From Nemertoderma westbladi (Eukaryota; Animalia; Xenacoelomorpha), in NCBI GenBank assembly GCA_032718475.1, contig JAUCBJ010001088.1, positions 85,581-149,580 of the forward strand: a stretch of DNA of 64,000 bases, read 5' to 3'. Positions within the stretch are counted from its first letter, which is position 1. The number at the start of each line of letters is the position of its first letter. Below, one piece after another: positions 17,140 to 63,316 of this stretch. Position numbers and translations under genes: made by a program. Under the pieces are notes generated by a model. That model was not told the origin of the DNA. It worked only from the letters and a program-made list of their open reading frames with translations, and did no database searches.

Positions 17140-18590
17140 CTTAATAAACATAACTGAAGCTTATCTCAGTCTCAGCACGATATCCTTAGTCTAATGGAGT
17201 GATCGAAAGTCCTCATCGGGGGATCAAAAATATGATTAAAATTGATAATTTTTTACATCTCACGATCTCGCGTTGACCAAACTAAATAACAATAAATACG
17301 ACAATTATTTCAGACGACATGAACATTGATTTACTTCAACTACAAAAGCTAAACAATACATAGATTTACTTTCCTCTAACGGCTACGTAAAATTAATTAA
17401 AACTCCAACTCGAATAACCCCCTGGTCCAAAACCCTCATTGATCACACAATAACTAATATCACAACACGCGTCTTTTCTACACTCATAGGTACCTCCGAC
17501 CATCAACCCACATTCTCGATCTTTGAAAAATTTACTTGTCACTTTTATCAAAATTAAAATAAAACGCTTTTTGACTTCTCCCAATTTAATCCTGACTCCT
17601 TCAATCGCGTTATCGAACGAGAAACCTCATGGTCTTACATCTCATCGTCAGTAACAGCCCGGAAAAATTTGATGAATTTTAGAATAATTTTGTTAAAATA
17701 TGCGATACCCATGTTCCCAAAAAAACGTTTTCTCCACCAACCCTTCCAAAAAAACCATGGATAACAAATAAATTAATCAAATTAACGATTATCAAAAATG
17801 ATTTATACCGCATTTATATCAAAAATTCAATGGGCACAGTGCTTTAAATGCTGCAGCCTAGCCCAACCCCGGCTTTCATCCTTTAGTGGTCGATAAATGG
17901 AAACCAAGGCAACTTGGGAAACAGAGTGGAAGGGTTTACTGTGGAAGATCATCCATGGTGGTGAAGAGGCATTCCTTGGCTTAACGAGCCTAAAAGATTC
18001 TCCCATTCATATCAAAAATTCATCTGACGAAAACTTGACTTCCTTCAAAAGATTTAGAAATAAACCCTTCTACGAACAGCTGAAAATAACTACTACGCAA
18101 AAAATTTTTACGATAACTCAGGGAACATTCGAGAAAAACATGGATGATTATAAATAGCGCACTAAATAAATCAAACAAAAACTCCATTCCAAAACAGATT
18201 ACAATTTACACTGGCGATTCAATTAAGACCACCATTACCGACCCAGCTGAAATAGCCTCAAAATTTAATGACCACTTAATCACAATTTAATGACCACTTT
18301 TCTACTATAGGACCCAACCTAGCCAATGAAATCCCCCGTTCTACCCGCTCCACAACACGTTTTGTATATCACTCCAATCCGAAGTCTTTCGTAATTACAG
18401 AAACAACACCAGTAAAAGTAGAATACCGTCTTCTCCAACTCAATCCTAATTCTGCTACTAATGACCCCTTCTCTAACAAATTGCTTACGGTTGCCGCTAA
18501 ACCTCCATCTAAGCTACCTCATTAACTTATCTTTTTCCATAGGTTTCTTCCCGGATTCTCTAAAAATTGCTAGAGTGACTCCCATCCATT
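17140..18590 (+). mobile_element. Decayed CR1/L2-type LINE (endonuclease end, linker, RT start)
   Basis: Frameshifted motifs such as TSDHQP, KKPWITN, FNDHFSTIG, FPDSLKIARVTPIH. Confidence 0.75.
17830..18003 (+). mobile_element. 5'-truncated SINE inserted in the LINE
   Basis: 19-bp TSD cat(t/c)..atatcaaaaattca with one mismatch (17811-17829 and 18004-18022); body homologous to the SINE at 48840-49062. Confidence 0.8.
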
Positions 18591-19999: not shown

Positions 20000-22900
20000 A
20001 TTCACGCATACATGTCACACGCACACACTTGCACACGGAGAAGTGATTTATATATTACTATGAGTTGTGTCAATGCTCGAGTTCGAGTATGATTGTCCGT
20101 CACTATCGAGCTGTCCTCGTACTCGTCTAATCGTTTAATATCAGTCGTTCAGTGGGTGGCCGGCCAGTCCAATGAAACTGAACATTGCTGTCGATTTATT
20201 TATCTCTCAACTGTTTTGCTGTCGTCAAATCTCCTGTCTGATTTGTGAATCTTATTGGTATTGTAGATTTCGTCAATGTACTATAATTGTTACTCTAACT
20301 CCCTACAAGTTAGATATTTCTGACATGTGTAATAATTTTACAGCTATAACTGTCCCTCTTACTAAGTTACCTATTTTTAATCAATTACATATAACCTAAT
20401 TTAGTAATTACGTTACTTACCAAATAAAGTTACTTTTTATGTACTTTATACTTTATTTAATTATAATATCGTACATACATGATATTATAACTGTTCCAAT
20501 TTTTACTTTTCTTTCAGTTTTAACATATATATGTTTTCCTATGTAGACCTCGCTACTGTATTTCGGTTTCTTACCTGCCTACAGTATGATATGTAGTCTC
20601 ACAACAGTCTCGTATTTTCTACTGTACATAATTTTCTTTATTTATTTATTATATTTTTTTTTTATTATGTTTTGTACAGGGTGTTGTGCCCATTATATTT
20701 GAATATAACAGGGTGGAATCTACGAGAATTTATTTTTCTTACTCTCGCAAATGCAACTCCCGCCCTCCCAGACCTACACTTCTAGGTCTCGAGATTGAGG
20801 GTGTTTCCTTACTGGGCAGTTACTTACTAACAGTTACTTACTGGGCGTCTGTAAGTTTTCTTGCTATCACCACCCAGGGTGACCTCAACCGTTCTGACTT
20901 TGCCGTCGGTCCCGGGATGGCATTTAACTATGCGTGCCATCTGCCTTACCAAGGTAACTAATACCAGATCGCCTGGCTGAAGGTTTCGCTGTTGTTTACC
21001 CCACTTCTGTCGCTTGTGGAGTGTTGGGATGTATTCATCTGTCCACTGCTTCCTATACTCGTCAGACAATACCTGTACTATTCGCCATGACTGTTTAGAG
21101 TACAGGTCGGATTTGTCCCACGAACCCCGGTTCATTAACTGGGCTGGTCTTCTTAGTAATAAGTGAGAAGGTGTTAGTATCTCTAACGATGTTGGATCAT
21201 CTTGAAGAGGGCACATGGGCCTACTATTCATGGCTCATTGTGCTTCTGCTAGGACTGTTCTTAGGACATCTTCGGTGACTATATGTTTCCTAAGTAGTGC
21301 AGTCATGAGTCTCTTTGTAATACCAATAAGTCTTTCAACAAACCCTAGGATGTGAGTCGCATATGGTGTTCTCTTCTCCCACACAATGCCATCACTTCTC
21401 ACGGCATTCATGACTTCCTTTGATTGGAAGGTACATCCTGCCTCTCGAAGCTGTTTTTCTGCCCCAATGAAATTTGTGCCATTATCTGATTACAGCTTCT
21501 TTATAGAACCTTGATGGTTGATTAATCTGCGGAGTGCATTTATGAATGCGCTCGCAGATGCATCTACCGCTAGTTCTAACGCTATTGCTCGCGTGGCAAT
21601 ATTATGCCATAGCGGTTCTCATGGTGGCGTTTGACTTTTATGGTGAGTGGGCCGAACATGTCAGTACCGGTGTATGAGAATGGTGGTTCATACCCTAGGG
21701 TTCTTTCCTTGGGTAGGGATGCCATCAATTGGCTTTCCCTCTTCCTCTTTTGCTTGCGGCATGTTTGGCAGGTCCCCACCATAGATTTTATTTTCTTGCG
21801 TACGGCTGGTATCCAGAATGTACGACGCACCGATGTTAATGTCATATCAGTGCCGCCATGTAATGTCTGTGCTTGACAATCATTTATTATTTGGGTTACA
21901 ATAGTCGATTTTCTCGGTAGTATTATTGGTTTCGATGGTACTAGTATACTTGAGGCATGTTGTACCCGTGAGTCCATCACTATTAATCCAGAGTCAGTGA
22001 GTTTGGGTCTCAGAGTTCTTATGGAGCTCTCCGGCTGTACAGATTTCCCAGCTCTCAACCGTTTTATCTCCTCTGTGTATTTCTCTCGGTAGGACAATAG
22101 TGCCAATTGTCTAAGTTTGTGCCATCAGCTTGTGCCATTGCCGCCATCAGCTCTAACCTAGGTATTGTTGGCTTCTTGAGAGGGGCTGATCTCGCTTTAC
22201 TGAATACAAGGCGAGGTAGCAGAGAACCTTCTCCTTTCTGTACTATGTATAACGCTGCACCATACCTTTTAGTAGATGCATCAGTGAATACATGGAGATC
22301 TAAGTTAGAGGCATCTCCATTTTCAAAGTATGCCCATGGTATACTGAGTTTCGGTATTGCTGCCAAACTCTCCAGCCAAACACACCATTGTTTACTTATT
22401 GTGTCTGGAAGGACTTGGTCCCATGGGCACTTAAGGAGGTAAACATCCCTTAGGATTTGTTTGCCAACTACTATAACTGGTGCCACCAGACCCAGCGGGT
22501 CATACATTTTAGCTATGTTTGACAGCTCATAAACAAAACGGACCGTTTTGTGTGTTTGAATATATATTCTAATGCATCAGTCTCCCTGTTCCATGTGATG
22601 CCTAGGACTCGAGAATCAGCTTCCCGCTTTCGTTCTGTGAGTATGCTGTCTACACCGGTTGGCATCACACTGTTGTTTCGGCATAGTTGTTTTATGTCAC
22701 TGCGTTCTAATTGGGGTTCAGATGATATGTATTGTGTATCCCCTGGTATCTCATTTTGGTTATTTTGTGGCCCAAATTGGGACGTTTTTTCTTTGGATTC
22801 CATAATATCGACAAACTCCTTGGAATTAGATTTGAACTTTTTAAGACGGAACCCTCCCCCCATTAGAATCTCTACGACTTGTGTCGCCGTTTTAACCATA

Positions 22901-23480
22901 TCTGCCAAGGAGTTGCTTGATACTAGTCCATCATCAACATAGAACCCCTTATGGATCATATCTATGACACTGGTGTCATAGATACCTCCCTTCCCTTCTG
23001 TGGATTGCCTAAGGCATTTTGTTGCCACATAGGGGGAGTCCTTTGTGCCGAAGATTTGGATAGTCATCTTGTACTTATCAGGTTCAATTGGTTTATCACC
23101 ATCATAATATAGGAACCTGAGGCTCTCACTATCCTCGATGTACACGTTCACTTGATGGAACATTGCCTCGATGTCACATGAGAATGCCAAGGTTCCTTGT
23201 CGAAACCTGATTAGTACTTCAACACCGGTGTCTTAAATATTAGGGCCCTCTAAGAGGTAATCGTTCAATGACTTGCCCCTGTATTTAGCTGCTGCGTCAT
23301 TTACTATGCACATTTTATTACCCTTCTTTATGTCCACTGCCACATGTAAAGGTGTAGATACTATGTACGGGTGGAGTCTGGTACTCTTTGGTGCAGTTTA
23401 ACTGCCCAGCCTTTGTCCAGGTATTTATTAATTGATTTCTGAACAAAGGCCCCTCTTTCGTTCCATGGCTTTAACTTTAA
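20000..23480 (-). mobile_element. Decayed BEL/Pao LTR retrotransposon (RT-RNase H-integrase and 3' LTR region)
   Basis: CDIEAMFHQV, FYVDDG, YDPLGLVAP, HVFTDAS, TIPRLEL, integrase H..CxxC, LTPSHLL..QKW..GDLV tail; polypurine tract gggagggcgggag at about 20757-20769; frameshifts and internal deletion. Confidence 0.9.
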
Positions 23481-24439: not shown

Positions 24440-24573
24440 TTGTAGAGTTTGGAAAAGGAATCCAAACACTACACCAGGAAAAGTAGAGTTTGGGAAAGTA
24501 ATCCAAACACTACACCAGGAAAAGTAGAGTTTGGGAAAGGAATCCAAACACTACACCAGGAAAAGTAGAGTTT
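24440..24573. repeat. 41-bp tandem repeat, about 3 units
   Basis: aaacactacaccaggaaaagtagagtttgggaaaggaatcc; same unit as 36018-36497. Confidence 0.9.
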
Positions 24574-24949
24574 GACTGCAATTTGACGTTTTTTGCCCAT
24601 AATTTCTTAGCTTTTGAATATCTTTATGTTTTATTGTCAGATTTGCAATCTGTGGAAAAATGCAATCAAAATATGATATATACTTTTACCAGTTTGAAAA
24701 AAAATATATTTTGACAGCTACGATTTTTTTTTTTTTTCACTTTCTTCGGCTGAGACCTGCACTGTACGTAACTGATAATATAAAAGGCCAAAGTCGACAG
24801 GCAAAATTGGTTTAACCAAGTCGTGAAATGACCTCTATATCTACTGTATAACATACCATATTACAATATAAATAACATTTTACAGATGAATCAATAGTTA
24901 AGACCAGGCCTAGCCATGCATTCGAAAAAAAAAAATATATAATATTATT

Positions 24950-27470
24950 TTCTTCCACTCTGTGTCATTAAGGAATGCCTGATTACCACCATGGGTGATC
25001 TTCCACAGTAAACCCTTCCACTGTGTTTCCTAAAGGAATGCCTGTTCACCACTATGGGTGATCTTCCACAGTAAACCCTTCCACTTTGTTTCCTAAAGGA
25101 ATGCCTGTTCACCACTGTGGGTGATCTTCCACAGTAAACCCTTCCACTCTGTTTCCTAAAGGAATGCCTGTTCACCACCATGGGTTATCTTTCACAGAAA
25201 ACCCTTCCACTCTGTTTCCTAAAGGAATGCCTGTTCACCACTGTGGGTGATCTTCCACAGTAAACCCTTCCACTCTGTTTCCTAAAGGAATGCCTGTTCA
25301 CCACAATGGGTTATCTTTCACAGAAAACCCTTCCATTCTGTTTCCTAAAGGAATGCCTGTTTACCACCATGGGTGATCTTCCACAGTAAACCCTTCCACT
25401 CTGTTTCCTAAAGGAATGCCTGTTCACCACCATGGGTTATCTTTCACAGAAAACCCTTCCACTCTGTTTCCTAAAGGAATGCCTGTTCACCACTGTGGGT
25501 GATCTTCCACAGTAAACCCTTCCACTCTGTTTCCTAAAGGAATGCCTGTTCACCACAATGGGTTATCTTTCACAGAAAACCCTTCCACTTTTTTTCCTAA
25601 AGGAATGCCTGTTCACCACCATGGGTGATCTTCCACAGTAAACCCTTCCACTGTGTTTCCTAAAGGAATGCCTGTTCACCATCATGGGTGATCTTCCACA
25701 GAAAACCCATCCATTCTGTTTCCTAAAGGAATGCCTGTTCAACCGTGGGTGATCTTCCACAGTAAACCCTTCCACTGTGTTTCCTAAAGGAATGCCTGTT
25801 CACCACTATGGGTTATCTTTCATAGAAAACCCTTCCATTCTGTTTCCTAAAGGAATGCCTGTTCACCACCATTGGTGATCTTTCCACAGTAACCCTTCCA
25901 CTCTGTTTCCTAAAGGAATGCCTGTTCACCACCATGGGTTATCTTTCACAGAAAACCCTTCCACTCTGTTTCCTAAAGGAATGCATGTTCACCACTGTGG
26001 GTGATCTTCCACAGTAAACCCTTCCACTCTGTTTCCTAAAGGAATGCCTGTTCACCACAATGGGTTATCTTCCACAGAATACCCTTCCACTTTTTTTCCT
26101 AAAGGAATGCCTGTTCACCACCATGGGTGATCTTCCACAGTAAACCCTTCCACTGTGTTTCCTAAAGGAATGCCTGTTCACCATCATGGGTGATCTTCCA
26201 CAGAAAACCCTTCCATTCTGTTTCCTAAAGGAATGCCTGTTCAACCGTGGGTGATCTTCCACAGTAAACCCTTCCACTGTGTTTCCTAAAGGAATGCCTG
26301 TTCACCACTATGGGTTATCTTTCATAGAAAACCCTTCCATTCTGTTTCCTAAAGGAATGCCTGTTCACCACCATTGGTGATCTTTCCACAGTAACCCTTC
26401 CACTCTGTTTCCTAAAGTAATGCCTGTTCACCAACATGGGTTATCTTTCACAGAAAACCCTTCCATTCTGTTTCCTAAAGGAATGCCTGTTCACCACCGT
26501 GGGTGATCTTCCACAGTAAACCCTTCCATTCTGTTTTCTAAAGGAATGCCTGTTCACCACCGTGGGTGATCTTCCACAGTAAACCCTTCCACTGTGTTTC
26601 CTAAAGGAATGCCTGTTCACCACCATGGGTTATCTTTCACAGAAAATCTTTCCACTCTGTTTCCTAAAGGAATGCCTGTTTAACACCATGGGTGATCTTC
26701 CACAGTAAACCCTTCCACTCTGTTTCCTAAAGGGATGCCTGTTCACCACTGTGGGTGATCTTCCACAGAAAATCTTTCTACTGTGTTTCCTAAAGGAATG
26801 CCTGTTCACCATCAATTGGTGATCTTCCACAGTAAACCTTTCCACTCTGTTTCCTAAAGCAATGCCTGTTCACCATCATGGGTGATCTTCCACAGAAAAC
26901 CCTTCCATTCTGTTTCCTAAAGGAATGCCTGTTCACCACCGTGGGTGATCTTCCACAGTAAACCCTTTCACTGTGTTTCCTAAAGGAATGCCTGTTCACC
27001 ACCATGGGTTATCTTTCATAGAAAACCCTTCCATTCTGTTTCCTAAAGGAATGCCTGTTCACCACCATTGTTGATCTTTCCACAGTAACCCTGCCACTCT
27101 GTTTCCTAAAGGAATGCCTGTTCACCATCATGGGTTATCTTTCACAGAAAACCCTTCCATTCTGTTTCCTAAAGGAATGCCTGTTCACCACCGTGGGTGA
27201 TCTTCCACAGTAAACCCTTCCATTCTGTTTCCTAAAGGAATGCCTGTCCACCACTGTGGGTGATCTTCCACAGTAAACCCTTCCACTCTGTTTCCTAAAG
27301 GAATGCCTGTTCACCACCATGGGTTATCTTTCACAGAAAACCCTTCCACTCTGTTTCCTAAAGGAATGCCTGTTCACCACTGTGGGTGATCTTCCACAGT
27401 AAACCCTTCCACTCTGTTTCCTAAAGGAATGCCTGTTCACCACAATGGCTTATCTTTCACAGAAAACCTT
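24950..27470. repeat. About 60-63-bp satellite array, about 40 units, SINE-tail derived
   Basis: ttcctaaaggaatgcctgttcaccaccatgggtgatcttccacagtaaacccttccactctgt repeated. Confidence 0.95.
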
Positions 27471-35460: not shown

Positions 35461-36017
35461 AATTTAATTGGTATTATATAATGGTGAATGTTCTAGAAAC
35501 TTAATATATATTATTATATGGTAGGTAGCTAGAGTTTTTTTTACTAGCTAGTATTTTTTTAAAAATAAAAAAAATTTACTTTTTTTTGTTAGCATTATTA
35601 TTATTTTATGGTAGCTATGGTGTTTTTATGGAGCTTGTGAATTATTTACTAGCTAGTAATAGTATGTATTTAAAATGTTTATTTTTAAAACTGATATTTT
35701 TTATATACTGCGTATGTATACTGTATGTGATGTTGGTTGGTTAACAAGCCTAAATTATCTCATCTCATCTCATATCTCAAAATTAATCTCATTCAGGGAC
35801 TGTTATAATATCATCAATATTTTTGGTAATTAATATAATCAGCAACAGTTTAGGCCTAATTCTGAAATATCAATGTTTTCACAAGTGTTTTTATAATTTT
35901 AAGGAAATGCTAGCTAATAAAAAAAACACTAGCTACACCTTAATAAATAATATATAATAATGTTCTCGAATACTACCAATAACAAAAATAAAAAAAAATA
36001 CAGTATTTTTAAATTTA

Positions 36018-36497
36018 AAAACTACACCAGGAAAAGTAGAGTTTGGGAAAGGAATCCAAACACTACACCAGGAAAAGTAGAGTTTGGGAAAGGAATCCAA
36101 ACACTACACCAGGAAAAGTAGAGTTTGGGAAAGGAATCCAAACACTACACCAGGAAAAGTAGAGTTTGGGAAAGGAATCCAAACACTACACCAGGAAAAG
36201 TAGAGTTTGGGAAAGGAATCCAAACACTACACCAGGATAAGTAGATTTTGGAAAAGGAATCCAAACACTACACCAGGAAAAGTAGAGTTTGGAAAAGGAA
36301 TCCAGACACTACACCAGGAAAAGTAGAGTTTGGGAAAGGAATCCAAACACTACACCAGGAAAAGTAGAGTTTGGGAAAGGAATCCAAACACTACACCAGA
36401 AAAAGTAGAGTTTGGGAAAGGAATCCAAACACTACACCAGAAAAAGTAGAGTTTGGGAATGGAATCCAAACACTACACCAGGAAGAGTAGAGTTTGA
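36018..36497. repeat. 41-bp tandem repeat, about 12 units
   Basis: Period 41 (36021, 36062, ...); each unit has an internal inverted repeat ccaaacactac / gtagagtttgg. Confidence 0.95.
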
Positions 36498-37847: not shown

Positions 37848-40800
37848 TGTTAATCTAAAGATGACCAGATACTGTTGTACCGGTAGGTGGTGGTTGGTAG
37901 TATGCTCTGTAGGCCTATCGTTATTGACGGCTGTATTATAATATAGTAGCGTATGTTTGGTGGTGTGTAAATTGAGTTTACTGTCCCGGTTCTGCATACC
38001 GGTATCTTAACTAACTGCCACATATATATATATATTATTATTATATTTCTCGATATTGATGATTAACAATTGGTAGCAGAGCGTTGTGAATTTATATTTG
38101 CGTAGCAAGCGAAGAAATTAATGCGAAGTAGTTAATTAAAGGGATAATTTAGCAAGCGACAATTTACGATAATTTGTGTCAGAGGTTAGTGTTTTAGTTG
38201 TTTAATTTCAGCGTTTAGTGTTTAGTACATGCAGTCATGACAGCCCCCAGTCCGTCAACGACAACCTTCAAAATAAACCCTCCAACATTTAATTCCGCCA
38301 GTAAGTCATATGAGCGATACAAGCAGGAGTTGCTCGCATGGAGAGAAATTACAGATTTACCAAAACCTAAACAAGCGATAGCTATTGCTCTCTCCTTTCC
38401 AGACAATGATACCTCGAAAATACGCGAGAAAGTTTTTGATGAAATTCCATTGGATAATTTAAAGTTGGTCGATGGGTTTGACACTCTTGTTAGATTTCTC
38501 GATCTGAAACTTGGGAAAGACGACCTGGAAGACTGTCTGGAGAAATTTGAAGATTTTGAAGATTATTTCAAATCTCAATCAGAAACAATTTTTGAGTATA
38601 TATCAAACTTCGACCAAAAATATCAACGAATAAAGAAGCATAACATCGTACTTCCTGCCGCAGTTTTGGCTTTCAAGTTAATTCGCAATTCGCGTGTTTC
38701 TAAAGAGGAGAAGTTGCTTGTAATTACCGGTTTAGATTATACAAGGAAAGATGAATTATATGATCAGAGTCAAAAATCACTGAAGAAGTTTATTGGCAAA
38801 TCCATGACATCTGATTCCACTACAACTTCAAATCCGGCAATAAAACTAGAACCGCTATTCTTGGCAGAGAATGAGGAGGCATTGGCAGCTGCGGGCTATT
38901 ATCGTGGCCAGGGATATCGGGGGTTTAGAGGCGCTGGTGGAACTCCAGGTGGAAGTAACTACTTCAATTCTACAAGACGAAATTATGTACCTTATAAGCC
39001 TAGCAATCTCGGTTCTTTTCGATCGGGTGTTAATTATCCAGGCGGAGGTGGGAACATTAGATCAAATTTGGTTCAAGAGAGGAAGGTTAACCCATCAGGT
39101 ACTGACGGCCGTCCGCTTACTTGTCGATGTTGTGGTTCGTTTCGTCATCTAATAAAAGATTGCCCAGACACCTGGGAAAACATCGCGAAGGTGAATATAA
39201 CAGACAATGAAAACCATGGAATAGATTATGATAATGAACAGCCACTTTATTTTGATGAATCTGAAAATGTCTTGCTTAGTGTATTTGCTTCATCCAATGA
39301 AATGTGGCAGTTGGGGATCGAAGCAACAAATTGCGCAGTTTTAGATAGTGCTTGCACTAGTACAGTATGTGGTGAGAAATGGCTTAATACTTATCTCTCC
39401 TCTCTTAATGATGATGACAGAAAACGTGTTGCATTTAATTCCAGTAAAAAAATGTTTAAATTTGGAGCTGGTTCCAAACTTGCTTCATAGGGGGAGTATG
39501 TCCTTCCCGCAGTGATTGCAGGCAAGAACGTTTCCATCAGAACAGATATTGTTGATTCTGAAATACCTCTTCTACTATCCAAAACATCTATGAAGAGAGC
39601 CCAAATGAAGATCGATTTAGAGACTGATACTGCAGAAGTTTTTGGTAAAGTTATAGCTTTGAACATGACATCATCCGGTCATTATTGTCTTCCAATTAGT
39701 ATTCCAGCTGAGGAGAATATGATTTTTGCTGTTGATTTTAATGGCCTTGAAAAATGTGAATTACACAAAGTTTTATTAAAAATACATCGACAGTTTGCTC
39801 ATCCTTCATCAGTGAAGTTTATTAACTTATTACAAGATGCCGGAGTCTGGAAAGATTCATTTTCAGACATTGTAAACAATATTACAGATAATTGTGATGT
39901 CTGTAAGCGATTCACAAAGACACGCCCAAGACCTGTTGTTGCTTTGCCTATGGCAAATAGATTTAATGAAGTAATCGCAATTGATTTAAAGGCATGGGAA
40001 TCAGAATGGATTTTGCATATGGTTGATGTATGGTCCCGATATAATATATCTGTATTTGTTTCAAACAAGAAGACGTCTACAATTGTTGATAAGATTATGC
40101 GAAATTGGGTTGCATATTTCGGTACTATGGGTGCAATTATGTCCGATAATGGTGGTGAGTTCAGTTCCGATGAGGTAAGGGAAATTTCTTCAATATTGAA
40201 TGTTAAAGTTCATACTACAGCTGGTTACAGTCCATATCAGAATGGATTATGTGAAAGAATACATGCAATCACTGACTTTATGTTGAAGAAACTCAAGGAG
40301 GATCAAAGCAAAGTTGCTGTGGAAATATTACTACCATGGGCCAACATGGCTAAGAATTCACTCCAAATGTGGAATGGTTATACGAGCAATCAACTAGTTT
40401 TTGGCCAGAATCCACAAATTCCCTGTCTTATGTTTGATGCGCCTCCAGCTTTACAAGGTACTACTTCCAGTGAAATATTTGCTGGTCACCTTAATTCCCT
40501 TCATGCTGCTAGGAAAGCATTTATTGAATCTGAAACTAATGAGCGTCTACGTCGAGCTCTGCGTTATAAAATTCGCATTTCAGAGCAAATATTTCATAAT
40601 GGTGATTTGGTATATTATAAACAAGATGGTAAAGACCGTTGGCTAGGTCCAGCGAAAGTAGTCTTCCAAGATGGTAAGGTGGTTTTTATAAGACATGGTG
40701 GTGTATTTTTACGTGTGGCACCAAACCGGCTACTACCTGTTTCATCGACCCAAGATCAGCCTGCTACTTCTGTAAATAATGCTGATGATACCGCTACTAC

Positions 40801-43030
40801 TAGTTCTGTCACAGAAGTGAAGGGTAATACTAATACTATTCTTACAGAAAGTTTTACTGCAAGTGGTGATTCTCATTCATCCCCTGAAAATGTGGTGAAA
40901 GAACAACCAATTCTAGATGACACATCTACCCCAAATTCAATAGTCTCTGTTAAAAATTGTTCCAACTATAAACCTAAGGCTGGTGATAATATTGAAGTCC
41001 GTAATGATGATTCCAATGAGTGGATTCCTGTTAAAATTTTGGGTCGTGCCGGAAAAGCTACAGGAAAATTTTCAAATTGGTATAATGTGGAGGAAGATAA
41101 CGGTAATAAGCATAGTTTCGATCTTTGCACTAAAGAATGGAGAGCTATCAATGATGTTGATTTTTTAAACGATGTGAATTTGGTTATTATTCCAAAAAAC
41201 CAGCATTCAACTCCAGATTGTCTAAATGCTAAGCAAGTTGAGCTCCAAAAACTTATTGATTATGAAGTTTATGAAGAAGTTCCATACGACAACTAGCAAT
41301 GTATAAGTACAAGATGGATTTTATGGTACAAGGGGCAGGAGATCCGTGCTCGCTTAGTGGCTAGAGGTTTCGAAGAAAACATGAAACTTGCTACTGATTC
41401 ACCAACTATAGGTAAATATACAATGCGAATAATGTTAGCTATTATAGCTAGTAAAGGTTGGACCTTAAAGGCCACTGATATAAAATCGGCCTTTCTACAA
41501 GGGAAGACACTGGAGCGGGATTTATATTTACTTCCTCCTAAGGAAGCAAATGTATCTGATAACATGGTATGGCGGCTCAAGAAATGCCTGTATGGATTAA
41601 ATGATGCAGCTCGCCAATTTTACATTAGTGTTGTGGAAAAACTTACTGCTCTCGGATGTCTCAGATCACCACTAGATCCCGCATTATTTATATATCACGA
41701 CAATCAGAATAATGTTGCTGGAATACTCTGTTCTCATATAGACGACTTTCTTCATGCTGGGGATGAAAGATTTGACAATATCATTTCTCAGCTTACACAA
41801 CGATTTATTGTTGGTAAATCAGTACAACACGAATTCAATTACGTCGGATTTGAGCTAATTCATACAGTTGAAAACTTCATTGTTATTAATCAAAACAAGT
41901 ATGTTAATGATCTTAATATACCCAAATTAGATTTCACACGCAATAAGAATGATAACTTATCCAACTCAGAACTGTCACTTTATCGATCTTTAGTTGGTAA
42001 ATTAAATTGGATAGTCCATGGCAGCCGACCGGATTGGAACTTTGAACTTATTCAATTGAGTACACGTTTTAAAAACGCAATTTATGAAGATTTACTCCGT
42101 GTTTGCAAGATATTGCGAAAAATTCAAGAAGCTGATTGCTATGTTTTGTTTCCGAATCTAGAACATATTGTAAACTGGAAATTAATACTATATACCGATG
42201 CTGCTTTTGCTAATTTGAATGATGGAATAAGTAGCACCATGGCTTATATATTATTTTTGGTTGGCTCTAAAGGTTCTTCATGTCCTATTTCATGGAGTAC
42301 CTCAAAAATCAAGCGAGTAGTTCGCTCTACTATTGCCGCGGAAGCTTTGAGTTTACAGCAAGGAATAGAACAAGCTATCTATATTCGCTCATTGATATTA
42401 CAAATAATTGGATCAGGATCCCAATTGCCAATATTGGTTTTCAGTGATAACCGAAGCGTTATTGAGTCACTTCAATCTACAAAGATGGTGGATGACAAAC
42501 GTTTAAGAATAGATATTTGCGCAATCAAACAATTTCTGGAAAATGGTGAGATCCAATCTGTCTCTTGGTGTCCAGGATCGAAACAAATGGCCAATTCTCT
42601 GACAAAGAAGGGAGCTAATGGTGTAGAATTGCTTCGTTCGATTACTACTGGAAAACTCTCCAATATAAACTTCTCATAAGTTCAACTCAAACTCGACGAT
42701 ATAATAAGACTTATTAAAAAAAACTCTCCAATATAAACTTCGTATATGTTCATATGTTCAACTCAAACTGTAATAGGACTTATTAAACAAAATAAAAATA
42801 TGGGAGAGTTGTTAATCTAAAGATGACCAGATACTGTTGTACCGGTAGGTGGTGGTTGGTAGTATGCTCTGTAGGCCTATCGTTATTGACGGCTGTATTA
42901 TAATATAGTAGCGTATGTTTGGTGGTGTGTAAATTGAGTTTACTGTCCCGGTTCTGCATACCGGTATCTTAACTAACTGCCACATATATATATATATTAT
43001 TATTATATTTCTCGATATTGATGATTAACA
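37848..43030 (+). mobile_element. Full-length Ty1/Copia LTR retrotransposon, GalEa-type
   Basis: 221-bp LTRs 37848-38068 and 42810-43030 (TGT..ACA, identical by eye); TSD atggc; PBS tggtagcagag (initiator tRNA-Met) at 38071; PPT gggagag. Confidence 0.96.
38237..42679 (+). pseudogene. Copia gag-pol polyprotein with two in-frame TAG stops
   Basis: ORFs 38237, 39512 and 41357 share one frame; CCHC knuckle, LDSACTSTVCG protease, HRQFAH..CDVC / SDNGGEF integrase, HIDDF RT, YTDAAF RNase H; stops at 39488-39490 and 41294-41296. Confidence 0.93.
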
Positions 43031-47029: not shown

Positions 47030-48575
47030 TTCTTCCACTCTGTGTCATTAAGGAATGCCTGTTTACCACCATGGGTGATCTTCCACAGAAAATCCTTCCA
47101 CTATGTTTCCTAAAGGAATGCCTGTTCAGCACCATGGGTGATCTTCCACAGAAAACCCTTCCACTCTGTTTCCTAAAGGAATGCCTGTTCACAACCAATT
47201 GGTGATCTTCCACAGTAAACCCTTCCACTATGTTTCCTAAAGGAATGCCTGTTCACCATCAATTGGTGATCTTCCACAGTAAACCCTTCCACTCTGTTTC
47301 CTAAAGCGCAATGCCTGTTCACCATGATGGGTGATCTTCCACAGAAAAACCCTTCCATTCTGTTTCCTAAAGGAATGCCTGTTCACCACCGTGGGTGATC
47401 TTCCACAGTAAACCCTTCCACTGTGTTTCCTAAAGGAATGCCTGTTCACCACCATGGGTTATCTTTCATAGAAAACCCTTCCATTCTGTTTCCTAAAGGA
47501 ATGCCTGTTCACCACCATTGGTGGTCTTTCCACACTAACCCTTCCACTCTGTTTCCTAAAGGAATGCCTGTTCACCATCATGGGTAATCTTTCACAGAAA
47601 ACCCTTCCATTCTGTTTCCTAAAGGAATGCCTGTTCACCACCGTGGGTGATCTTCCACAGTAAACCCTTCCATTCTGTTTCCTAAAGGAATGCCTGTTCA
47701 CCACCGTGGGTGATCTTCCACAGTAAACCCTTCCACTGTGTTTCCTAAAGGAATGCCTGTTCACCACCATGGGTTATCTTTCACAGAAAACCCTTCCATT
47801 CTGTTTCCTAAAGGAATGCCTGTTCACCACCGTGGGTGATCTTCCACAGTAAACCCTTCCACTGTGTTTCCTAAAGAAATGCCTGTTCACCACCGTGGGT
47901 GATCTTCCACAGTAAACCCTTCCACTGTGTTTCCTAAAGGAATATGGGTGATCTTCCACAGAAAACCCTTTCATTCTGTTTCCTAAAGGAATGCCTGTTC
48001 ACCACCATGGGTTATCTTTCACAGAAAACCCTTCCATTCTGTTTCCTAAAGGAATGCCTGTTCACCACCGTGGGTGATCTTCCACAGTAAACCCTTCCAC
48101 TGTGTTTCCTAAAGGAATGCCTGTTCACCACCGTGGGTGATCTTCCACAGTAAACCCTTCCACTGTGTTTCCTAAAGGAATATGTGTGATCTTCCACAGA
48201 AAACCCTTCCATTCTGTTTCCTAAAGGAATGCCTGTTCACCATCACGGGTGATCTTCCACAGAAAACCCTTCCACTCTGTTTCCTAAAGGAATGCCTGTT
48301 CACCATCATGGGTGATCTTCCACAGACAACCCTTCCATTCTGTTTCCTAAAGGAATGACTGTTCACCACCATGGGTGATCTTGCAAAGAAAACCCTTCCG
48401 TTCTGTTTCCTAAAGGAATGCCTGTTTACCACCATGGGTGATCTTCCACAGAAAACCCTTCCATTCTGTTTTCTAAAGGAATGCCTGTTTACCACCGTGG
48501 GTGATCTTCAACAGTTATCCTTTCCGGTATGTTTCCCAAAGGAATACATGACTGTTTAACACCCATGGTGTTGAT
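47030..48575. repeat. Second array of the 60-63-bp satellite, about 25 units
   Basis: Same unit as 24950-27470 and the same ~280-bp left flank. Confidence 0.95.
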
Positions 48576-52110: not shown

Positions 52111-52968
52111 TTTAGACTTTGACAGTTCTCAGGAATGACTCAACATATGAGCCAATTCTATAAAGATGGTGTGGTTGAGCATCTGGTAAAAAAAAGGTAA
52201 AACTTTAGGGAAACCTGTGGCATGGACTGGCATCGAATCGAATCGAAAGAAATTTTTCGTCTTCGATTTCCAATATATTTTTCGATTCGATATCGATTCG
52301 ACTCAGGTAAAAAATTTCTACTTTGATTCGATTATTCGACCTTTGATTATGAACTTAATTACTTGTCATCAAATATACATTATAAATTTTATTCTCAAAT
52401 TGTTACTTTTTTCCTTAGGGAAAAAATTAACCAATAGGAATGCATTCATTTTACTTTTTCCCGCTTATTATTTTTGATTTTCCCTATCCTGGCGAACTAT
52501 TTTTGGTGGAATTTCTTAATTTTATTTCAAGTGTTGAAATAGCATCGAAGTAGGAAAGGTGTGAAAGTAATTTAAGCAAAATCCATTCAAACACTCTTTA
52601 TGTTTGTTAAGCGGCTCTTTAGTTACGTAATAAATATCCGAGAACACTAAATTATTGTAACATTGAGTAAAGCGGCATCAGGAGTTGAAGAGTACAATAA
52701 TTGGAAACGCGGTAACTATATGGAAGCAATATATTGTAAAATACTGCAGTTTAATTTATTTTGTACCACTACATCACTGTACGTTTTATTAAAGAATTGA
52801 GCAACAAAAAGTACTAATTTAAAAATAAAATTAGTATTACATGGGAAAAAAACGTAGATAATTGATAATTATTAAAAATATATTAAGACTTAAGACTGCC
52901 TGTTCAATAGTTTTTCTAAGTGCATTCGGTGGGGTAGTGAATGTTAGGGACAAGTGGCTGAACTGGTT

Positions 52969-53014
52969 AGCGCTACTGATGAGGCCTGATAGGCCGAAAC
53001 GTACGTATAGCGCT
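52969..53014 (+). ncRNA. Type I hammerhead ribozyme
   Basis: Stem I agcgcta/tagcgct, core CTGATGA, stem II ggcct-gat-aggcc, GAAA, short palindromic stem III ACGTACGT, cleavage triplet GTA (cut after 53007). Confidence 0.88.
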
Positions 53015-53164
53015 GGTTCAACCCCCGGTGACGCGCTTTCTCATTTTTTCTATTTATGAACAAAACCATAATATTACATCTTTAATTACAGTTGCATTAC
53101 CAGCTCAACTCCAATTTACTTATAATAATATATAAAATACCTCGAGAATAGTGAACAGTCATCT

Positions 53165-55011
53165 GTCCAAATCAATTCGGGTTTAGGAAAAAATTCACGA
53201 CAACTTTTGCTGTTCTTAATATTGTAGAAAATATTCGTACCGCCTTAGATAATAAATAATCCACTTCAGTTGTATATAATATAGACCTAAAGAAAGCTTT
53301 CGACTCTTTGGACATAGGAATTCTTCTGAAGAAACTTTGCTCGTACGGTATCCGGACTCCTGTATCTGTACGGGACTCCTCACTCTCTACTTACAGATTA
53401 CCTATCTGAACGTTCCCAGTTTGTTTCCATAGCCAATATCCATTCTTCCATCAAACCGGTCACCTGTGGAGTTCCCCATGGATCTATTTTAGGACCACTT
53501 CTATTCCTCCTATATATCAACGACCTACCAAATTCCAGTAAACTTCGAACCACTTTATTCGCTGATGATACCAGCCTTAGCCATACAACAGCATCGGTTA
53601 GCGATATGTTTCTATCGGTTAACTCAAATCTGACAAGTGTATCTAAGTGGATAAAGGATAATAAATTAACAATAAACCTCAAAAAAACAGAATATACAAT
53701 TTTTTCCAATCTCCACGGCAACTTCAGACAGTTAAACCCAATTCATATTGATGGCAAACAAATTAAACAAGTTTCAGTTTCCAAGTACTTAGGCCTACAC
53801 ATAGACAGTAAACTAACATTTCGCCAACATGTCCAGTATGTTCTCAATAAAATATCTAAATCCGGTGGCATTTTTTTCAGACTAAGACATTTACTCCCCC
53901 TCCAAATAATGCGTACCCTATTCTTTTCTCTTATCTATCCTTACATAAACTACGGGTTAGTTGTATGGGGGGGTACATACTCTTCGATCTTAAAACCTTT
54001 ACGAATTAAAATTAATAAAATAGTTAGGTGCTTATCTTTCAGCCACCGCCGATCATCTTCAATTCCTATCTACCGTAAGCTACAAATCTTACCCCTTGAA
54101 GCTTTATATAAGCACCAAATCTGTAATCTAATGTACGATATATCCCGTAACCCTAAACACCCACTGGCATATTTATTTCGTAAAACTGCTTCTATCCATT
54201 CATATAATACTCGCTCTTCTAAATCTGGCCATTTTAATCTCCCTTCAGTCCGTCTTGAAGTTGCCCACCAATCTGTTGCTTTTCAAGGCCCTCTACTATG
54301 GAATTCACTGTCTGATGACCTTCGAAATATTGTTGTTAAATCAATCTTTGCCAAACAACTAAAAAGACATTTACTTGATCTATAATCGGTTACTATCATC
54401 CATTATATCTTATTGGTCACAATTAACCACTCAGTCAAATTGATTACAATTATCGACTATGACACATCGGTTAATATTTATCCACTCTGATTCATCCATC
54501 CACTCTGTCTCACCGGTCGCATTTATCTACCTTGAAATATTGGTCACAATTTTTCCACTCTTACTCATCGGTTTCAATTATCCAGTCTGTCACATCTTTT
54601 AGAATTATACCCTCTGCGTATCATCGGTTACAGTGGATAACTGATAACTCAATTTCACAGTCTGCAGTCTGGTCAGTGAGAAGGTCCTCGCGGGAGTACT
54701 CTGGGTTGGCTTCCCACAGTTATCATTCTCAGGTGTATAAGATGGTTACCCAATTCTTTGGTGTCATACCGCCAATCCACCCCCCCCCCCCCCCCCCCCT
54801 CGCAAATCAACATGTTAGTAAAAGGTTACCCAGGCACAGCACTAGCTTTGCTATTGTGTCCAAGTAATCTCCTAAATTGTAGGCACCAGTCAATGGCGAC
54901 TGATAACAATAACGTTTAGTAATTATATTACTATTCCATACAATTTCTGGTGCGGTGCATCTGTATTGTTTGTGAGGTATCTTGAAATTGAAAATTGAAA
55001 TTGAATTGAAA
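53165..55011 (+). mobile_element. 5'-truncated CR1/L2-type LINE with 3' UTR and (ttgaaa)n tail
   Basis: DLKKAFD, GVPHGSILGPLLF, LFADDT, KYLG, QGPLLWN; microsatellite tail at 54982-55011. Confidence 0.85.
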
Positions 55012-60074: not shown

Positions 60075-63000
60075 ATTAGAAGGATCTTACCTACAACCCT
60101 GCCACTATAATACCAGTACTCCAGGCCTTCGGTAAGTATCCAATTAGAAGGATCTTACCTACAACCCTGCCACTTGTACAGGTACTATAATACCAGTAGT
60201 CCAGGCCTTCGGTAAGTATCCAATTAGAAGGATCTTACCTACAACCCTACCACTTGTACAGGTACTATAATACCAGTAGTCCAGGCCTTCGATAAGTATC
60301 CAATTAGAAGGATCTTACCTACAACCCTGCCTCTTGTACAGGTACTATAATACCAGTAGTCCAGGCCTTCGGTAGGTATCCAATTAGAAGGATCTTACCT
60401 ACAACCCTACCACTTGTACAGGTACTATAATACCAGTAGTCCAGGCCTTCGATAAGTATCCAATTAGAAGGATCTTACCTACAACCCTGCCTCTTGTACA
60501 GGTACTATAATACCAGTAGTCCAGGCCTTCGGTAGGTATCCAATTAGAAGGATCTTACCTACTACCCTGCCTCTTGTACAGGTACTATAATACCAGTAGT
60601 CCAGGCCTTCGGTAAGTCCAATTAGAAGGATCTTACCTACAACCTTGCCTCTTGTACAGGTACTATAATACCAGTAGTCCAGGCCTTCGGTAAGTATCCA
60701 ATTAGAAGGATCTTACCTACAACCCTGCCACTTGTACAGGTACTATAATACCAGTAGTCCAGGCCTTCGGTAAGTATCCAATTAGAAGGATCTTACCTAC
60801 AACCCTGCCCCTTGTACAGGTACTACTGTATAATACCAGTAGTCCAGGCCTTCGGTAAGTATCCAATTAGAAGGATCTTACCTACAACCCTACCACTTGT
60901 ACAGGTACTATAATACCAGTAGTCCAGGCCTTCGGTAAGTATCCTATTAGAAGGATCTTACCTACAACCCTGCCTCTTGTACAGGTACTATAGTACCAGT
61001 AGTCCTGGCCTTCGGTAAGTATCCAATTAGAAGGATCTTACCTACTACCCTGCCACTTGTACAGGTACTATAATACCAGTAGTCCTGGCCTTCGGTAAGT
61101 ATCCAATTAGAAGGATCTTACCTACTACCCTGCCACTTGTACAGGTACTAAAATACCAGTAGTCCAGGCCTTTGGTAAGTATTCAATTAGAAGGATCTTA
61201 CCTACAACCCTGCCACTTGTACAGGTACTAAAATACCAGTAGTCCAGGCCTTCGGTAAGTATCCAATTAGAAGGATCTTACCTACAACCCTGCCACTTGT
61301 ACAGGTACTATATTACCAGTAGTCCAGGCCTTCGGTAAGTATCCTATTAGAAGGATCTTACTTACAACCCTGCCACTTGTACAGGTACTAAAATACCAGT
61401 AGTCCAGGCCTTCGGTAAGTATCCAATTAGAAGGATCTTACCTACAACCATGCCACTTGTAAAGGTACTATAATACCAGTAGTCCAGGCCTTCGGTAAGT
61501 ATCCAATTAGAAGGATCTTACCTACAACCCTGCCTCTTGTACAGGTACTATAATACCAGTAGTCCAGGCCTTTGGTAAGTATTCAATTAGAAGGATCTTA
61601 CCTACAACCCTGCCACTTGTACAGGTACTAAAATACCAGTAGTCCAGGCCTTCGGTAAGTATCCAATTAGAAGGATCTTACCTACAACCCTGCCACTTGT
61701 ACAGGTACTATATTACCAGTAGTCCAGGCCTTCGGTAAGTATCCTATTAGAAGGATCTTACTTACAACCCTGCCACTTGTACAGGTACTAAAATACCAGT
61801 AGTCCAGGCCTTCGGTAAGTATCCAATTAGAAGGATCTTACCTACAACCATGCCACTTGTAAAGGTACTATAATACCAGTAGTCCAGGCCTTCGGTAAGT
61901 ATCCAATTAGAAGGATCTTACCTACAACCCTGCCTCTTGTACAGGTACTATAATACCAGTAGTCCAGGCCTTCGGTAAGTATCCAATTAGAAGGATCTTA
62001 CCTGCAACCCTGCCACTTGTACAGGTACTATAATACCAGTAGTCCAGGCCTTCGGTAAGTATCCAATTAGAAGGATCTTACCTACAACCCTGCCTCTTGT
62101 ACAGGTACTATAATACCAGTAGTCCAGGACTTCGGTAAGTATCCAATTAGAAGGATCTTACCTACAACCCTGCCTCTTGTACAGGTACTATAATACCAGT
62201 AGTCCAGGACTTCGGTAAGTATCCAATTAGAAGGATCTTACTTACTACCCTGCCTCTTGTACAGGTACTATAATACCAGTAGTCCAGGCCTTCGGTAAGT
62301 ATCCAATTAGAAGGATCTTACCTACAACCCTGTCACTTGTACAGGTACTATAATACCAGTAGTCCAGGCCTTCGGTAAGTATCCAATTAGAAGGATCTTA
62401 CCTACAACCCTGTCACTTGTACAGGTACTATAATACCAGTAGTCCAGGCTTTCGGTAAGTATCCAATTAGAAGGATCTTACCTACAACCTTGCCTCTTGT
62501 ACAGGTACTATAATACCAGTAGTCCAGGCTTTCGGTAAGTATCCAATTAGAAGGATCTTACCTACAACCTTGCCTCTTGTACAGGTACTATAATACCAGT
62601 AGTCCAGGCCTTTGGTAAGTATCCAATTAGAAGGATCTTACTTACTACCCTGCGTCTTGTACAGGTACTATAATACCAGTAGTCCAGGCTTTCGGTAAGT
62701 ATCCAATTAGAAGGATCTTACCTACAACCTTGCCACTTATACAGGTACTATAATACCAGTAGTCCAGGACTTCGGTAAGTATCCAATTAGAAGGATCTTA
62801 CTTACTACCCTGCGTCTTGTACAGGTACTATAATACCAGTAGTCCAGGCCTTCGGTAAGTATCCAATTAGAAGGATCTTACCTACAACCCTGCCACTTAT
62901 ACAGGTACTATAATACCAGTAGTCCATGCCTTCGGTAAGTATCCAATTAGAAGGATCTTACCTACTACCCTGCCACTTGTACAGATAAGTGTACTATAAT

Positions 63001-63316
63001 ACCAGTAGTCCAGGCCTTCGGTAAGTATCCAATTAGAATGATCTTACCTACAACCCTGCCACTTATACAGGTACTATAATACCAGTAGTCCATGCCTTTG
63101 GTAAGTATCCAATTAGAAGGATCTTACCTACTACCCTGCCACTTGTACAGATAGGTGTACTATAATACCAGTAGTCCAGGCCTTCGGTAAGTATCCTATT
63201 AGAAGGATCTTACCTACTACCCTGCCACTTGTACAGGTACTATAATACCAGTAGTCCAGGCCTTCGGTAAGTATCCAATTAGAAGGATCTTACCTACTAC
63301 CCTGCCTCTTGTACAG
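60075..63316. repeat. 80-bp satellite array, about 40 units
   Basis: gtaagtatccaattagaaggatcttacctacaaccctgccacttgtacaggtactataataccagtagtccaggccttcg; period 80 (60132, 60212, ...). Confidence 0.97.

What the first reader, a model, noticed from the sequence alone, without database searches (positions are those of the whole stretch)
52948..53049. Hammerhead ribozyme placed inside a tRNA-like Pol III unit
Seen: A-box-like tggctgaactgg (52955-52966) with a D-arm-like ttagcgc, then a complete type I hammerhead (52969-53014), then B-box-like ggttcaaccc (53015-53024) and a T6 run (53044-53049). The ribozyme occupies the anticodon/variable arm position, and stem I can extend by pairing A-box tgaact with B-box ggttca. 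Stem III is a tiny palindrome (ACGTACGT). Established: minimal palindromic type I hammerheads occur in Penelope-like elements and retrozymes and can work as dimers; the Schistosoma Sm-alpha SINE couples a tRNA-type promoter with a hammerhead. Inference: a ~100-nt self-promoting, self-cleaving Pol III RNA or micro-retroelement in which promoter and ribozyme overlap. The acceptor stem does not pair, so it is not a functional tRNA.
Basis: partly seen in the sequence, partly recalled or inferred. Interest (0 to 1): 0.85.

Follow-up and report, generated by a model that had tools for sequence, protein, structure and literature searches.

The report
Hammerhead nested inside a tRNA promoter
This is one copy of an abundant short repeat of an animal genome in which a hammerhead self-cutting RNA motif sits between the two promoter boxes of a tRNA-like sequence; it is likely a SINE-like passenger of Penelope retrotransposons, and it is longer than the 100-base unit first proposed.

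Summary
The motifs are real: a type I hammerhead (52969-53014; Rfam E 3.4e-4, below the family threshold), a perfect A box 3 nt before it, the window's only strict B box directly after it, and T6.

Contigs from four public DNA runs (three studies) show a dispersed, high-copy repeat, not a lone 100-nt gene. Many short copies start at about 52939-52943, 12-16 nt before the A box. Copies run past T6 and end mostly near 53079 or 53117, about 38 nt apart. A rare long form, including this copy, reaches at least 52888.

The two end points, some inverted copies, an AT-rich target and a palindromic dimer-type stem III match Penelope-like elements (PLEs). Best reading (0.5): a Pol III-promoted, PLE-mobilised SINE-like element copied from uncut read-through RNA.

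No autonomous partner, RNA data or cleavage test was available, so Pol III transcription, cleavage and the mobilising enzyme are all inferred. Hammerhead SINEs (Sm-alpha) and PLE-derived retrozymes are known; a ribozyme nested between the boxes and overlapping both tRNA arms was not found in nine literature searches. New variant of a known kind; interest 0.6.

The parts
52888..53118 (+). This copy of the repeat (rare long form; 3' end uncertain, 53117-53126)
   Evidence: 7 of 16 listed pieces align from 52888-52890 and only the own-locus contig covers 52856-52885; depth falls to background after 53123
52888..52938 (+). 5' extension found in few copies (about 0.25% of core depth at 52898-52909); this copy has a private 7-nt insertion at 52911
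   Evidence: tables 2, 4, 8; ratio
52939..52943 (+). Start zone of many short copies; predicted Pol III start, 12-16 nt before the A box
   Evidence: table 7: 4 of the 5 'before' rows shown (33 of 40 contigs) point here, with unrelated flanks; the Pol III start distance is recalled
52955..52966 (+). A box, 12/12 match; common variant 52962 A>G stays within the consensus R
52957..52971 (+). tRNA-like D-arm (4 bp), sharing bases with hammerhead stem I
52969..53014 (+). Type I hammerhead with palindromic stem III; predicted cut after 53007 (GUA); predicted to need a dimer
53012..53029 (+). tRNA-like T-arm (5 bp, 8-nt loop), sharing bases with the 3' strand of stem I
53015..53025 (+). B box, 11/11 match, the only strict one in the window
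53044..53049 (+). T6 run (T7 in some copies): candidate Pol III terminator inside the element, not its end
   Evidence: tables 2, 7
53050..53079 (+). A/C/T-rich 3' body up to the first common end point (53078-53080, perhaps up to 53087)
   Evidence: tables 7, 8: 4 of 13 distinct ends plus a 13-contig loose-end row; cluster P about 0.02
53080..53118 (+). Optional ~38-nt tail up to the second end point (53116-53123); 53089-53113 is partly complementary to 52955-52978
   Evidence: tables 7, 8: 4 of 13 distinct ends plus a 17-contig loose-end row
52877..52883 (.). Possible target duplication AATATAT, repeated at 53127-53133 (AT-rich, weak)
52774..52858 (.). Another repeat into which this copy inserted; it resumes at 53132-53155
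   Evidence: table 2 and the joints 52810/52852/52858 to 53132 in table 5

Best explanation
The feature is the core of an abundant 140-180-nt dispersed repeat that likely acts as a SINE-like passenger of Penelope-like retrotransposons: RNA polymerase III would start at its tRNA-derived boxes, and a Penelope enzyme would copy uncut read-through RNA back into DNA. Shown: the boxes, the hammerhead between them, the many dispersed copies, 5' ends gathered 12-16 nt before the A box, two 3' end points about 38 nt apart beyond the T6, and some inverted copies. Inferred steps: (1) TFIIIC binds the A and B boxes (48 nt between them) and Pol III starts near 52941. (2) Part of the transcripts stop at T6, giving a ~105-nt RNA that would cleave only as a dimer through the stem III palindrome, which separates the A-box half from the B-box half. 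(3) Part read through T6; a PLE reverse transcriptase/GIY-YIG protein supplied in trans would start inside the RNA at one of two sites (near 53079 or 53117) and insert the copy at AT-rich DNA. (4) Only uncut RNA yields a copy with both boxes, so cleavage would limit spreading rather than make the mobile monomer. The element probably arose when a PLE terminal-repeat hammerhead replaced the anticodon and variable arms of a tRNA-type head.
For: Dispersed high-copy repeat: 149-2,805 contigs per run on 401 nt (these include the neighbouring repeat), unrelated flanks on both sides. 5' ends: 33 of the 40 contigs in the five 'before' rows shown point to 52939-52943; 4 of 8 distinct 5' ends in listed pieces lie at 52937-52955. 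3' ends: 8 of 13 distinct ends fall at 53078-53080 or 53116-53118, like the optional 30-40-bp PLE tail (PMC11167929; PMC8557442). 4 of 15 joints shown switch strand, each with one side at 52924-52944; an inverted 5'-truncated copy is a PLE trait. Geometry like PAc: ATG in the core, cut at +29 (PAc 26 nt after the start codon), ends at +101 and +139 (PAc 111-118). PAc inserts uncut RNA. Small palindromic helix III as in some PLE hammerheads; the lowest-energy dimer is the active double hammerhead. Four of four common variants are tolerated. Human Pol III terminates only 52% at T4 and 64% at T9 in a single-molecule assay (PMC13385618), so T6 read-through is plausible.
Against: No autonomous PLE was found: no PLE-type domain in 77 window frames scanned, and two frames through the element found no protein relatives (weak searches). 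T6 lies before both end points in most copies, which selection on a Pol III SINE would be expected to erode. 5' extent also tapers gradually up to 52888 (table 2), as plain 5' truncation would give. 5 of 13 3' ends lie elsewhere, and common variants at 53079 and 53081 could break alignments there. Two of the four strand switches (52974, 53003) fall in internal palindromes. End and joint counts come from cut tables (24 of 886 loose ends, 32 of 6,561 pieces, 15 of 39 joints; 12 of 119 and 16 of 688). The dimer gain (-11 kcal/mol) is matched by 49 of 300 shuffles. At 15-25 C stem I is predicted lost even in the short RNA (0.02-0.39). 8 of 9 retrozyme dimers tested in bioRxiv 2026.07.22.740005 did not cleave.
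Confidence: 0.5

Rival explanations
1. The copies are 5'-truncated ends of an autonomous Penelope-like element whose terminal repeat happens to hold the tRNA-derived boxes around its hammerhead. They come from the long Pol II transcript; Pol III may play no part in mobility.
For: A long form exists and goes on upstream of 52889 by at least 13 shared letters in a contig of depth 255 (X2 piece 4). The 5' extent tapers. T6 would not stop Pol II. Most PLE hammerheads occur as single dispersed motifs, probably truncated PLEs (PMC4209133). PLE-type ends.
Against: The long form is about 0.25% of core depth, while many copies begin in a 5-nt zone at a Pol III-type distance from the A box. Both boxes are perfect. 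No PLE coding sequence is recognisable in the 50-nt extension or the window.
Confidence: 0.25
2. It is the monomer of a non-LTR retrozyme: tandem master arrays of a ~225-nt unit give multimeric RNA that is cut by dimeric hammerheads and circularised, and the dispersed copies are partial offspring. A ligated circle would rejoin the split promoter.
For: ACTTA stands at both 52888 and 53118, as a terminal redundancy would. The unit length fits the 170-400-nt range (PMC7229834). The dimer-type stem III suits tandem copies. Monomer derivatives of retrozymes are common.
Against: No head-to-tail joint among the 15 joints shown (24 hidden), and the 17 contigs ending at 53123 continue into unrelated flanks (agreement 0.44). 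One copy only in the window. A 5-nt AT-rich match is weak. Retrozymes are reported to lack promoters (PMC7761336).
Confidence: 0.12
3. An ordinary LINE-mobilised tRNA SINE that carries a hammerhead as cargo, like Sm-alpha as first described.
For: tRNA-type boxes, a start peak, dispersed monomers and an AT-rich 3' end. L2/CR1-type reverse transcriptase fragments occur in the window.
Against: Two 3' end points, no poly(A) or simple-repeat tail in the loose-end consensus, and inverted copies. The tail matches nothing else in the window, including the adjacent LINE end. A LINE primes at the RNA's 3' end, which T6 would set upstream of the observed ends.
Confidence: 0.08
4. A stand-alone ~100-nt Pol III gene for a self-cleaving RNA, or chance boxes around an ordinary PLE hammerhead.
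For: The boxes and T6 define a complete transcription unit; the short RNA folds with stem I formed at 37 C (0.84-0.93).
Against: High copy number with ends beyond T6. Chance of the boxes is 2e-7 to 2e-5 and of both tRNA arms 0.009.
Confidence: 0.05

Closest known systems
Schistosoma Sm-alpha / Sj-alpha SINE-like elements (passages in PMC6765202, PMC2770079, PMC8490949; the primary paper PMC108972 was not held)
   Same: tRNA-derived Pol III promoter plus a type I hammerhead in one abundant short repeat.
   Different: There the promoter is followed by the hammerhead, the tRNA-Gln-like head is whole enough for tRNAscan-SE to call, and copies are often tandem. Here the hammerhead lies between the boxes, replaces the anticodon and variable arms, shares bases with the D- and T-arms, and the copies seen are dispersed with PLE-like ends.
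Penelope/Poseidon PLE terminal repeats, e.g. PAc of Anolis (PMC11167929: 12 passages and second half of main text; PMC4209133: parts 1-2 of 4; PMC8557442: 12 passages)
   Same: Type I hammerhead with small palindromic helix III, ATG at the core, two 3' end points 30-40 nt apart about 100-140 nt after that ATG, inverted copies, AT-rich target, uncut RNA copied.
   Different: No coding frame found. Perfect Pol III boxes and a start peak. [quoted passage not shown]
Non-LTR retrozymes (PMC7229834: 12 passages; PMC7761336: 11 passages; bioRxiv 10.64898/2026.07.22.740005: parts 1-3 of 5)
   Same: Short non-coding animal repeats with type I hammerheads, proposed PLE derivatives; some need dimers.
   Different: Defined by tandem units and circular RNA and said to lack promoters. 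Here there is an internal promoter and no tandem joint was seen.
TRIMp3 elements Helenus, Ajax, Cassandra (PMC10886601: 9 passages)
   Same: Precedent for a Pol III promoter in a non-autonomous element moved by a non-LINE retrotransposon class.
   Different: They are LTR elements with PBS, PPT and fixed 4-5-bp duplications, with no hammerhead named in the passages seen.

Membership tests
Type I hammerhead ribozyme | Core CUGANGA, GAAA, NUH and three helices | tested here: met
   helix III forms as a monomer with probability 0.02 and as 8 bp in the dimer
Type I hammerhead ribozyme | Rfam gathering score (34 bits) | tested here: not met
   26.4 bits, full-length match
Type I hammerhead ribozyme | Site-specific self-cleavage | not testable with these tools
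   needs an in vitro assay or cyclic-phosphate sequencing
Functional tRNA gene | Cloverleaf with acceptor stem and anticodon arm | tested here: not met
   2 of 7 acceptor pairs; no ARAGORN or Rfam tRNA call
tRNA-derived SINE | Internal A and B boxes in a tRNA-like head | tested here: met
   (consensus strings recalled)
tRNA-derived SINE | Many dispersed short non-coding copies | tested here: met
tRNA-derived SINE | 5' ends at the Pol III start | tested here: inconclusive
   peak at 52939-52943 in the rows shown, but a taper to 52888 and cut tables
tRNA-derived SINE | Pol III transcription | not testable with these tools
   no RNA run listed
tRNA-derived SINE | 3' tail shared with a LINE partner, ending in poly(A) or a simple repeat | tested here: inconclusive
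   no such tail in the loose ends; no match in the window; the genome was not available
PLE or non-autonomous PLE derivative | Type I hammerhead near the 3' end | tested here: met
PLE or non-autonomous PLE derivative | Two 3' end points with an optional 30-40-bp tail | tested here: met
   8 of 13 ends in two clusters about 38 nt apart; inner cluster P about 0.02; small sample
PLE or non-autonomous PLE derivative | Inverted 5'-truncated copy next to the 5' end | tested here: inconclusive
   4 of 15 joints shown switch strand; 2 of them at internal palindromes
PLE or non-autonomous PLE derivative | Homology to the terminal repeat of a coding PLE (RT plus GIY-YIG) | tested here: inconclusive
   none in the window or protein database; upstream sequence of long copies could not be read
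Non-LTR retrozyme | Tandem units each with a hammerhead | tested here: inconclusive
   single copy in the window; no head-to-tail joint among 15 of 39 shown
Non-LTR retrozyme | Circular RNA of monomer length | not testable with these tools
   no RNA run listed
Sm-alpha type hammerhead SINE | Whole tRNA-type promoter followed by the hammerhead | tested here: not met
   the hammerhead lies between the boxes; Sm-alpha order from PMC6765202

The most novel reading that the evidence does not exclude
A Penelope-mobilised Pol III retroelement in which one 75-nt stretch is at once promoter, ribozyme and switch. The A and B boxes pair to form the outer part of hammerhead helix I in the T6-terminated RNA, which cleaves as a dimer and so splits the promoter. 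In read-through RNA the tail pairs with the A box and the T-arm refolds, which switches the ribozyme off and spares the RNA that is copied into DNA. Termination versus read-through and RNA concentration would then set the element's own copy rate.
Probability: 0.15. Interest if true: 0.85.

Novelty: new variant of a known kind. Interest (0 to 1): 0.6.

Why it matters
SINEs are normally moved by LINEs, and the role of the hammerhead in Penelope-like elements is an open question: PAc inserts uncut RNA and Naiads lack the motif. An element of under 200 nt with its own promoter, a dimer-type ribozyme, an internal terminator and PLE-type ends would be a small test system for that question. Cutting here would separate the two promoter boxes, so one can ask directly whether cleavage restrains spreading, makes circles, or does nothing. 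It would also show that a tRNA's anticodon and variable arms can be swapped for a catalytic RNA without losing the promoter.

Tried and rejected
No whole genome is held, so copies could not be collected. No RNA holder listed; this says nothing about expression.

Pattern scans for a hammerhead core followed by a B box gave 5 viral, 51 metagenome and 22 prokaryote loci. None is a copy of this family (BLAST at E 0.01), and none joins a proper hammerhead to an upstream A box; these collections hold little animal DNA.

A homologue search meant to place the animal group found nothing; the organism is known here only as an animal. Two reading frames through the element found no longer protein. Earlier scan notes held no look-alike sequence.

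Rejected: functional tRNA or tRNA with a ribozyme intron (no acceptor stem, no anticodon arm); link to the adjacent LINE fragment from about 53156 (separate insertion beyond the host repeat; no shared tail); summed contig depth as a copy number (ratios 7,800 and 17,700, but the tool says depth is no copy number and overlapping contigs inflate it).

Weak and not relied on: the tail/A-box duplex (20-33 of 1,000 shuffles reach it with the 52962 G variant, 239-376 of 1,000 with A; 51 of 254 background tiles) and the length switch (real tail at or below 1-19 of 100 shuffles in five settings, 81 of 100 in one; stem I lost at 15-25 C). No compensating change at 53104 is listed. PMC108972 and PMC5785218 were not held.

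Full report
OBSERVATION. A type I hammerhead spans 52969-53014, with stem I of 7 bp, CTGATGA, stem II of 5 bp, GAAA, the palindrome ACGTACGT and a GUA cut site after 53007. Rfam matches the whole Hammerhead_1 model at 26.4 bits (E 3.4e-4), below the curated 34. It is the only core with a real stem II in the window. The A box (52955-52966) and B box (53015-53025) match the recalled consensus strings fully, and this is the only strict B box on either strand. The chance of both beside a given hammerhead is 2e-7 to 2e-5. A 4-bp D-arm and a 5-bp T-arm can both form (chance 0.009 given the boxes), and each shares bases with stem I; the acceptor stem pairs at 2 of 7. No tRNA is called. The window is repeat-rich animal DNA with satellites and retrotransposon pieces.

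IT IS A DISPERSED REPEAT. No genome was held, so I laid contigs of four public DNA runs of one species label, from three studies. X1 and X2 are one sample and hold the window's own flank without differences, so they may be its source; X3 and X4 are separate studies. On 52760-53160, 2,805, 1,829, 1,570 and 149 contigs were laid (these include a neighbouring repeat); on 52856-53006, 381 and 301 (X2, X3). Summed depth at the core is thousands of times that of the own-locus contig, but the tool says this is no copy number; hundreds to thousands of copies is the safe statement. Depth stays high past the T6 and drops to background after 53123. Joints from 52810-52858 to 53132 show that this copy sits inside another repeat. 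A 7-nt AT-rich duplication may flank it.

ENDS. I read orientation from pairs of records of one locus and counted only pieces that go on for 20 or more letters, merging repeats of one locus. Of 13 distinct 3' ends among the 32 pieces shown, 4 lie at 53078-53080, 4 at 53116-53118 and 5 elsewhere (53048, 53064, 53065, 53069, 53087); the inner cluster has P about 0.02. Loose-end rows at 53078 (13 contigs) and 53123 (17 contigs) have unrelated flanks (agreement 0.44). On the 5' side, 33 of the 40 contigs in the five 'before' rows shown trace back to 52939-52943 and 7 to 52967. Of 8 distinct 5' ends, 4 lie at 52937-52955, 3 inside the element and 1 at 52919. A long form with about 0.25% of core depth aligns to 52888, and one contig of depth 255 has 13 more shared letters upstream that this copy lacks, so this copy looks like a truncated long form. 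Four of 15 joints shown switch strand with one side at 52924-52944; two of them fall in internal palindromes, and one has a 46-47-nt arm that fits 53070-53117. All these tables are cut to their best rows, so the counts are samples.

VARIATION. In X1-X3 the common variants listed between 52955 and 53025 are 52962 A>G (R of the A box), 52989 A>T (loop II), 52995 C>T (G-U pair) and 53003 A>G (wobble pairs in the stem III dimer); 35 lower rows were hidden. All four are tolerated by a rule model in which 44% of transitions and 15% of transversions are, P about 0.013. Three are transitions, one at a CpG, and most of this signal comes from the ribozyme, not the boxes. X4 alone shows low-share changes in the core (52982, 52992, 52998), as decayed copies would.

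FOLDING (predictions). As a monomer stem III has probability 0.02. The lowest-energy fold of two copies is the active double hammerhead with an 8-bp stem III, though the energy gain is matched by 49 of 300 shuffles. With the family's majority letters the T6-terminated RNA forms a rod: stem I 0.84, A-box/B-box pairing 0.79, an outer 5-bp stem 0.72. Read-through RNAs lose stem I (0.13, 0.03) and form the T-arm (about 0.8). In the longest RNA 53089-53112 pairs with 52956-52978. This switch is fragile: it is absent for this copy's letters at the first end point, stem I is lost at 15-25 C even in the short RNA, and the duplex beats shuffles only with the 52962 G variant. I treat it as a lead.

MECHANISM. 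The two end points, their distance from the core ATG (+101, +139) and the AT-rich target resemble PAc, where reverse transcription starts inside the RNA 111-118 nt into the frame, two start sites bound a 30-40-bp tail, and uncut RNA is the main substrate (PMC11167929). Inverted copies and the tail are general PLE traits (PMC8557442); small palindromic helices III occur in some PLE hammerheads (PMC4209133). The start zone fits a Pol III start (distance recalled). The T6 before both end points is the main difficulty, but human Pol III terminated only 52% at T4 and 64% at T9 in one assay (PMC13385618). I therefore favour a Pol III-promoted, PLE-mobilised SINE-like element (0.5) over truncated ends of an autonomous PLE (0.25), a retrozyme monomer (0.12; ACTTA at both 52888 and 53118, but no tandem joint seen), a LINE-moved SINE (0.08) and a lone RNA gene or chance boxes (0.05). 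The first two may both be true of one family. No PLE protein was found in the window or by searches with the element's frames.

COMPARISON AND NOVELTY. Sm-alpha joins a Pol III promoter to a hammerhead, promoter first (PMC6765202), with a tRNA-Gln-like head (PMC2770079). Retrozymes are tandem, said to lack promoters (PMC7761336) and proposed to derive from PLEs (bioRxiv 10.64898/2026.07.22.740005). TRIMp3 elements put Pol III promoters in non-autonomous LTR elements (PMC10886601). Nine searches listed no paper on a hammerhead between A and B boxes or on a PLE-moved tRNA SINE. The library lacks most subscription papers, the two primary papers were not held, I read no supplements (the PLE hammerhead alignments there could hold a similar case), and Repbase and Dfam could not be searched. 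Unreviewed notes of this scan describe tRNA heads ahead of PLE hammerheads in other animals; they prompted my test for PLE-type ends, but none describes the nested order. Pattern scans of viral, metagenome and prokaryote collections found no relative.

PAPERS SEEN. Passages only: PMC6765202, PMC7761336, PMC7229834, PMC2770079, PMC8557442, PMC13385618, PMC8490949, PMC10886601, PMC3088659. PMC4209133: parts 1-2 of 4. PMC11167929: passages and the second half of the main text. The bioRxiv preprint: parts 1-3 of 5.

VERDICT. Real feature, larger than described, a new variant of known hammerhead retroelements. The nested promoter-ribozyme layout is the new part; transcription, cleavage and the partner enzyme remain untested. 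Interest 0.6.

Noticed in passing
window 49055-49006 (- strand), partial second copy at 17836-17929: The window's other A/B-box pair heads a second, ordinary-looking tRNA-type SINE; a 94-nt, 82% identical piece lies at 17836-17929. No hammerhead.
   Followed up: partly
L010, L022, L043, L048, L054, L060, L072, L076, L078 (and L045, L049, L058, L073, L074) at the pattern match: Archaeal-type intron-bearing tRNA genes with a GAA anticodon carry CTGAAGA in the anticodon loop and GAAAC at the intron's 3' junction, which are both hammerhead core boxes, though stems II and I do not form properly. A trap for motif searches and a possible route from tRNA to hammerhead.
   Followed up: partly
L004; L007, L017, L024, L039; L009, L013, L021, L025, L053 at the pattern match: Hammerhead-like motifs with 4-5-bp stem II followed by GGTTCAA in viral and metagenome contigs, with no A box upstream. 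Probably other hammerhead types whose helices contain a B-box-like word.
   Followed up: no
window 52968-53014: Each hammerhead helix is built from a direct repeat of a self-complementary word (TAGCGCT twice, AGGCC twice, ACGT twice), so every arm can also pair with the same arm of another molecule (self-duplexes of -9 to -11 kcal/mol).
   Followed up: partly
window 52979-53056 and 52983-53123: The frame from the core ATG is open to just past the T run and a second frame is open from 52983 through both end points; one base fewer in the T run would join them. Possibly the remnant of a PLE frame start; no protein relative found.
   Followed up: partly
window 52774-52858 and 53132-53155: An unnamed abundant repeat split by this insertion.
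   Followed up: no
window 53156-54385: 5'-truncated LINE reverse transcriptase fragment directly downstream, L2/CR1-like by eye, unrelated to the element.
   Followed up: partly
window 14464-15156 (+), 15999-16577 (-), 10715-12532 (-), 20830-23232 (-), 38219-42679 (+): Single-frame fibrinogen C-domain and HDNR-domain ORFs, a DDE_Tnp_1_7 transposase, a BEL/Pao element and a copia-type pol broken by stops.
   Followed up: no
window 24952-27468 and 47032-48545; 24442-24574 and 36017-36496; 60104-63316: The same 63-bp and 41-bp satellites occur at two distant places each; an 80-bp satellite has 40 copies.
   Followed up: no
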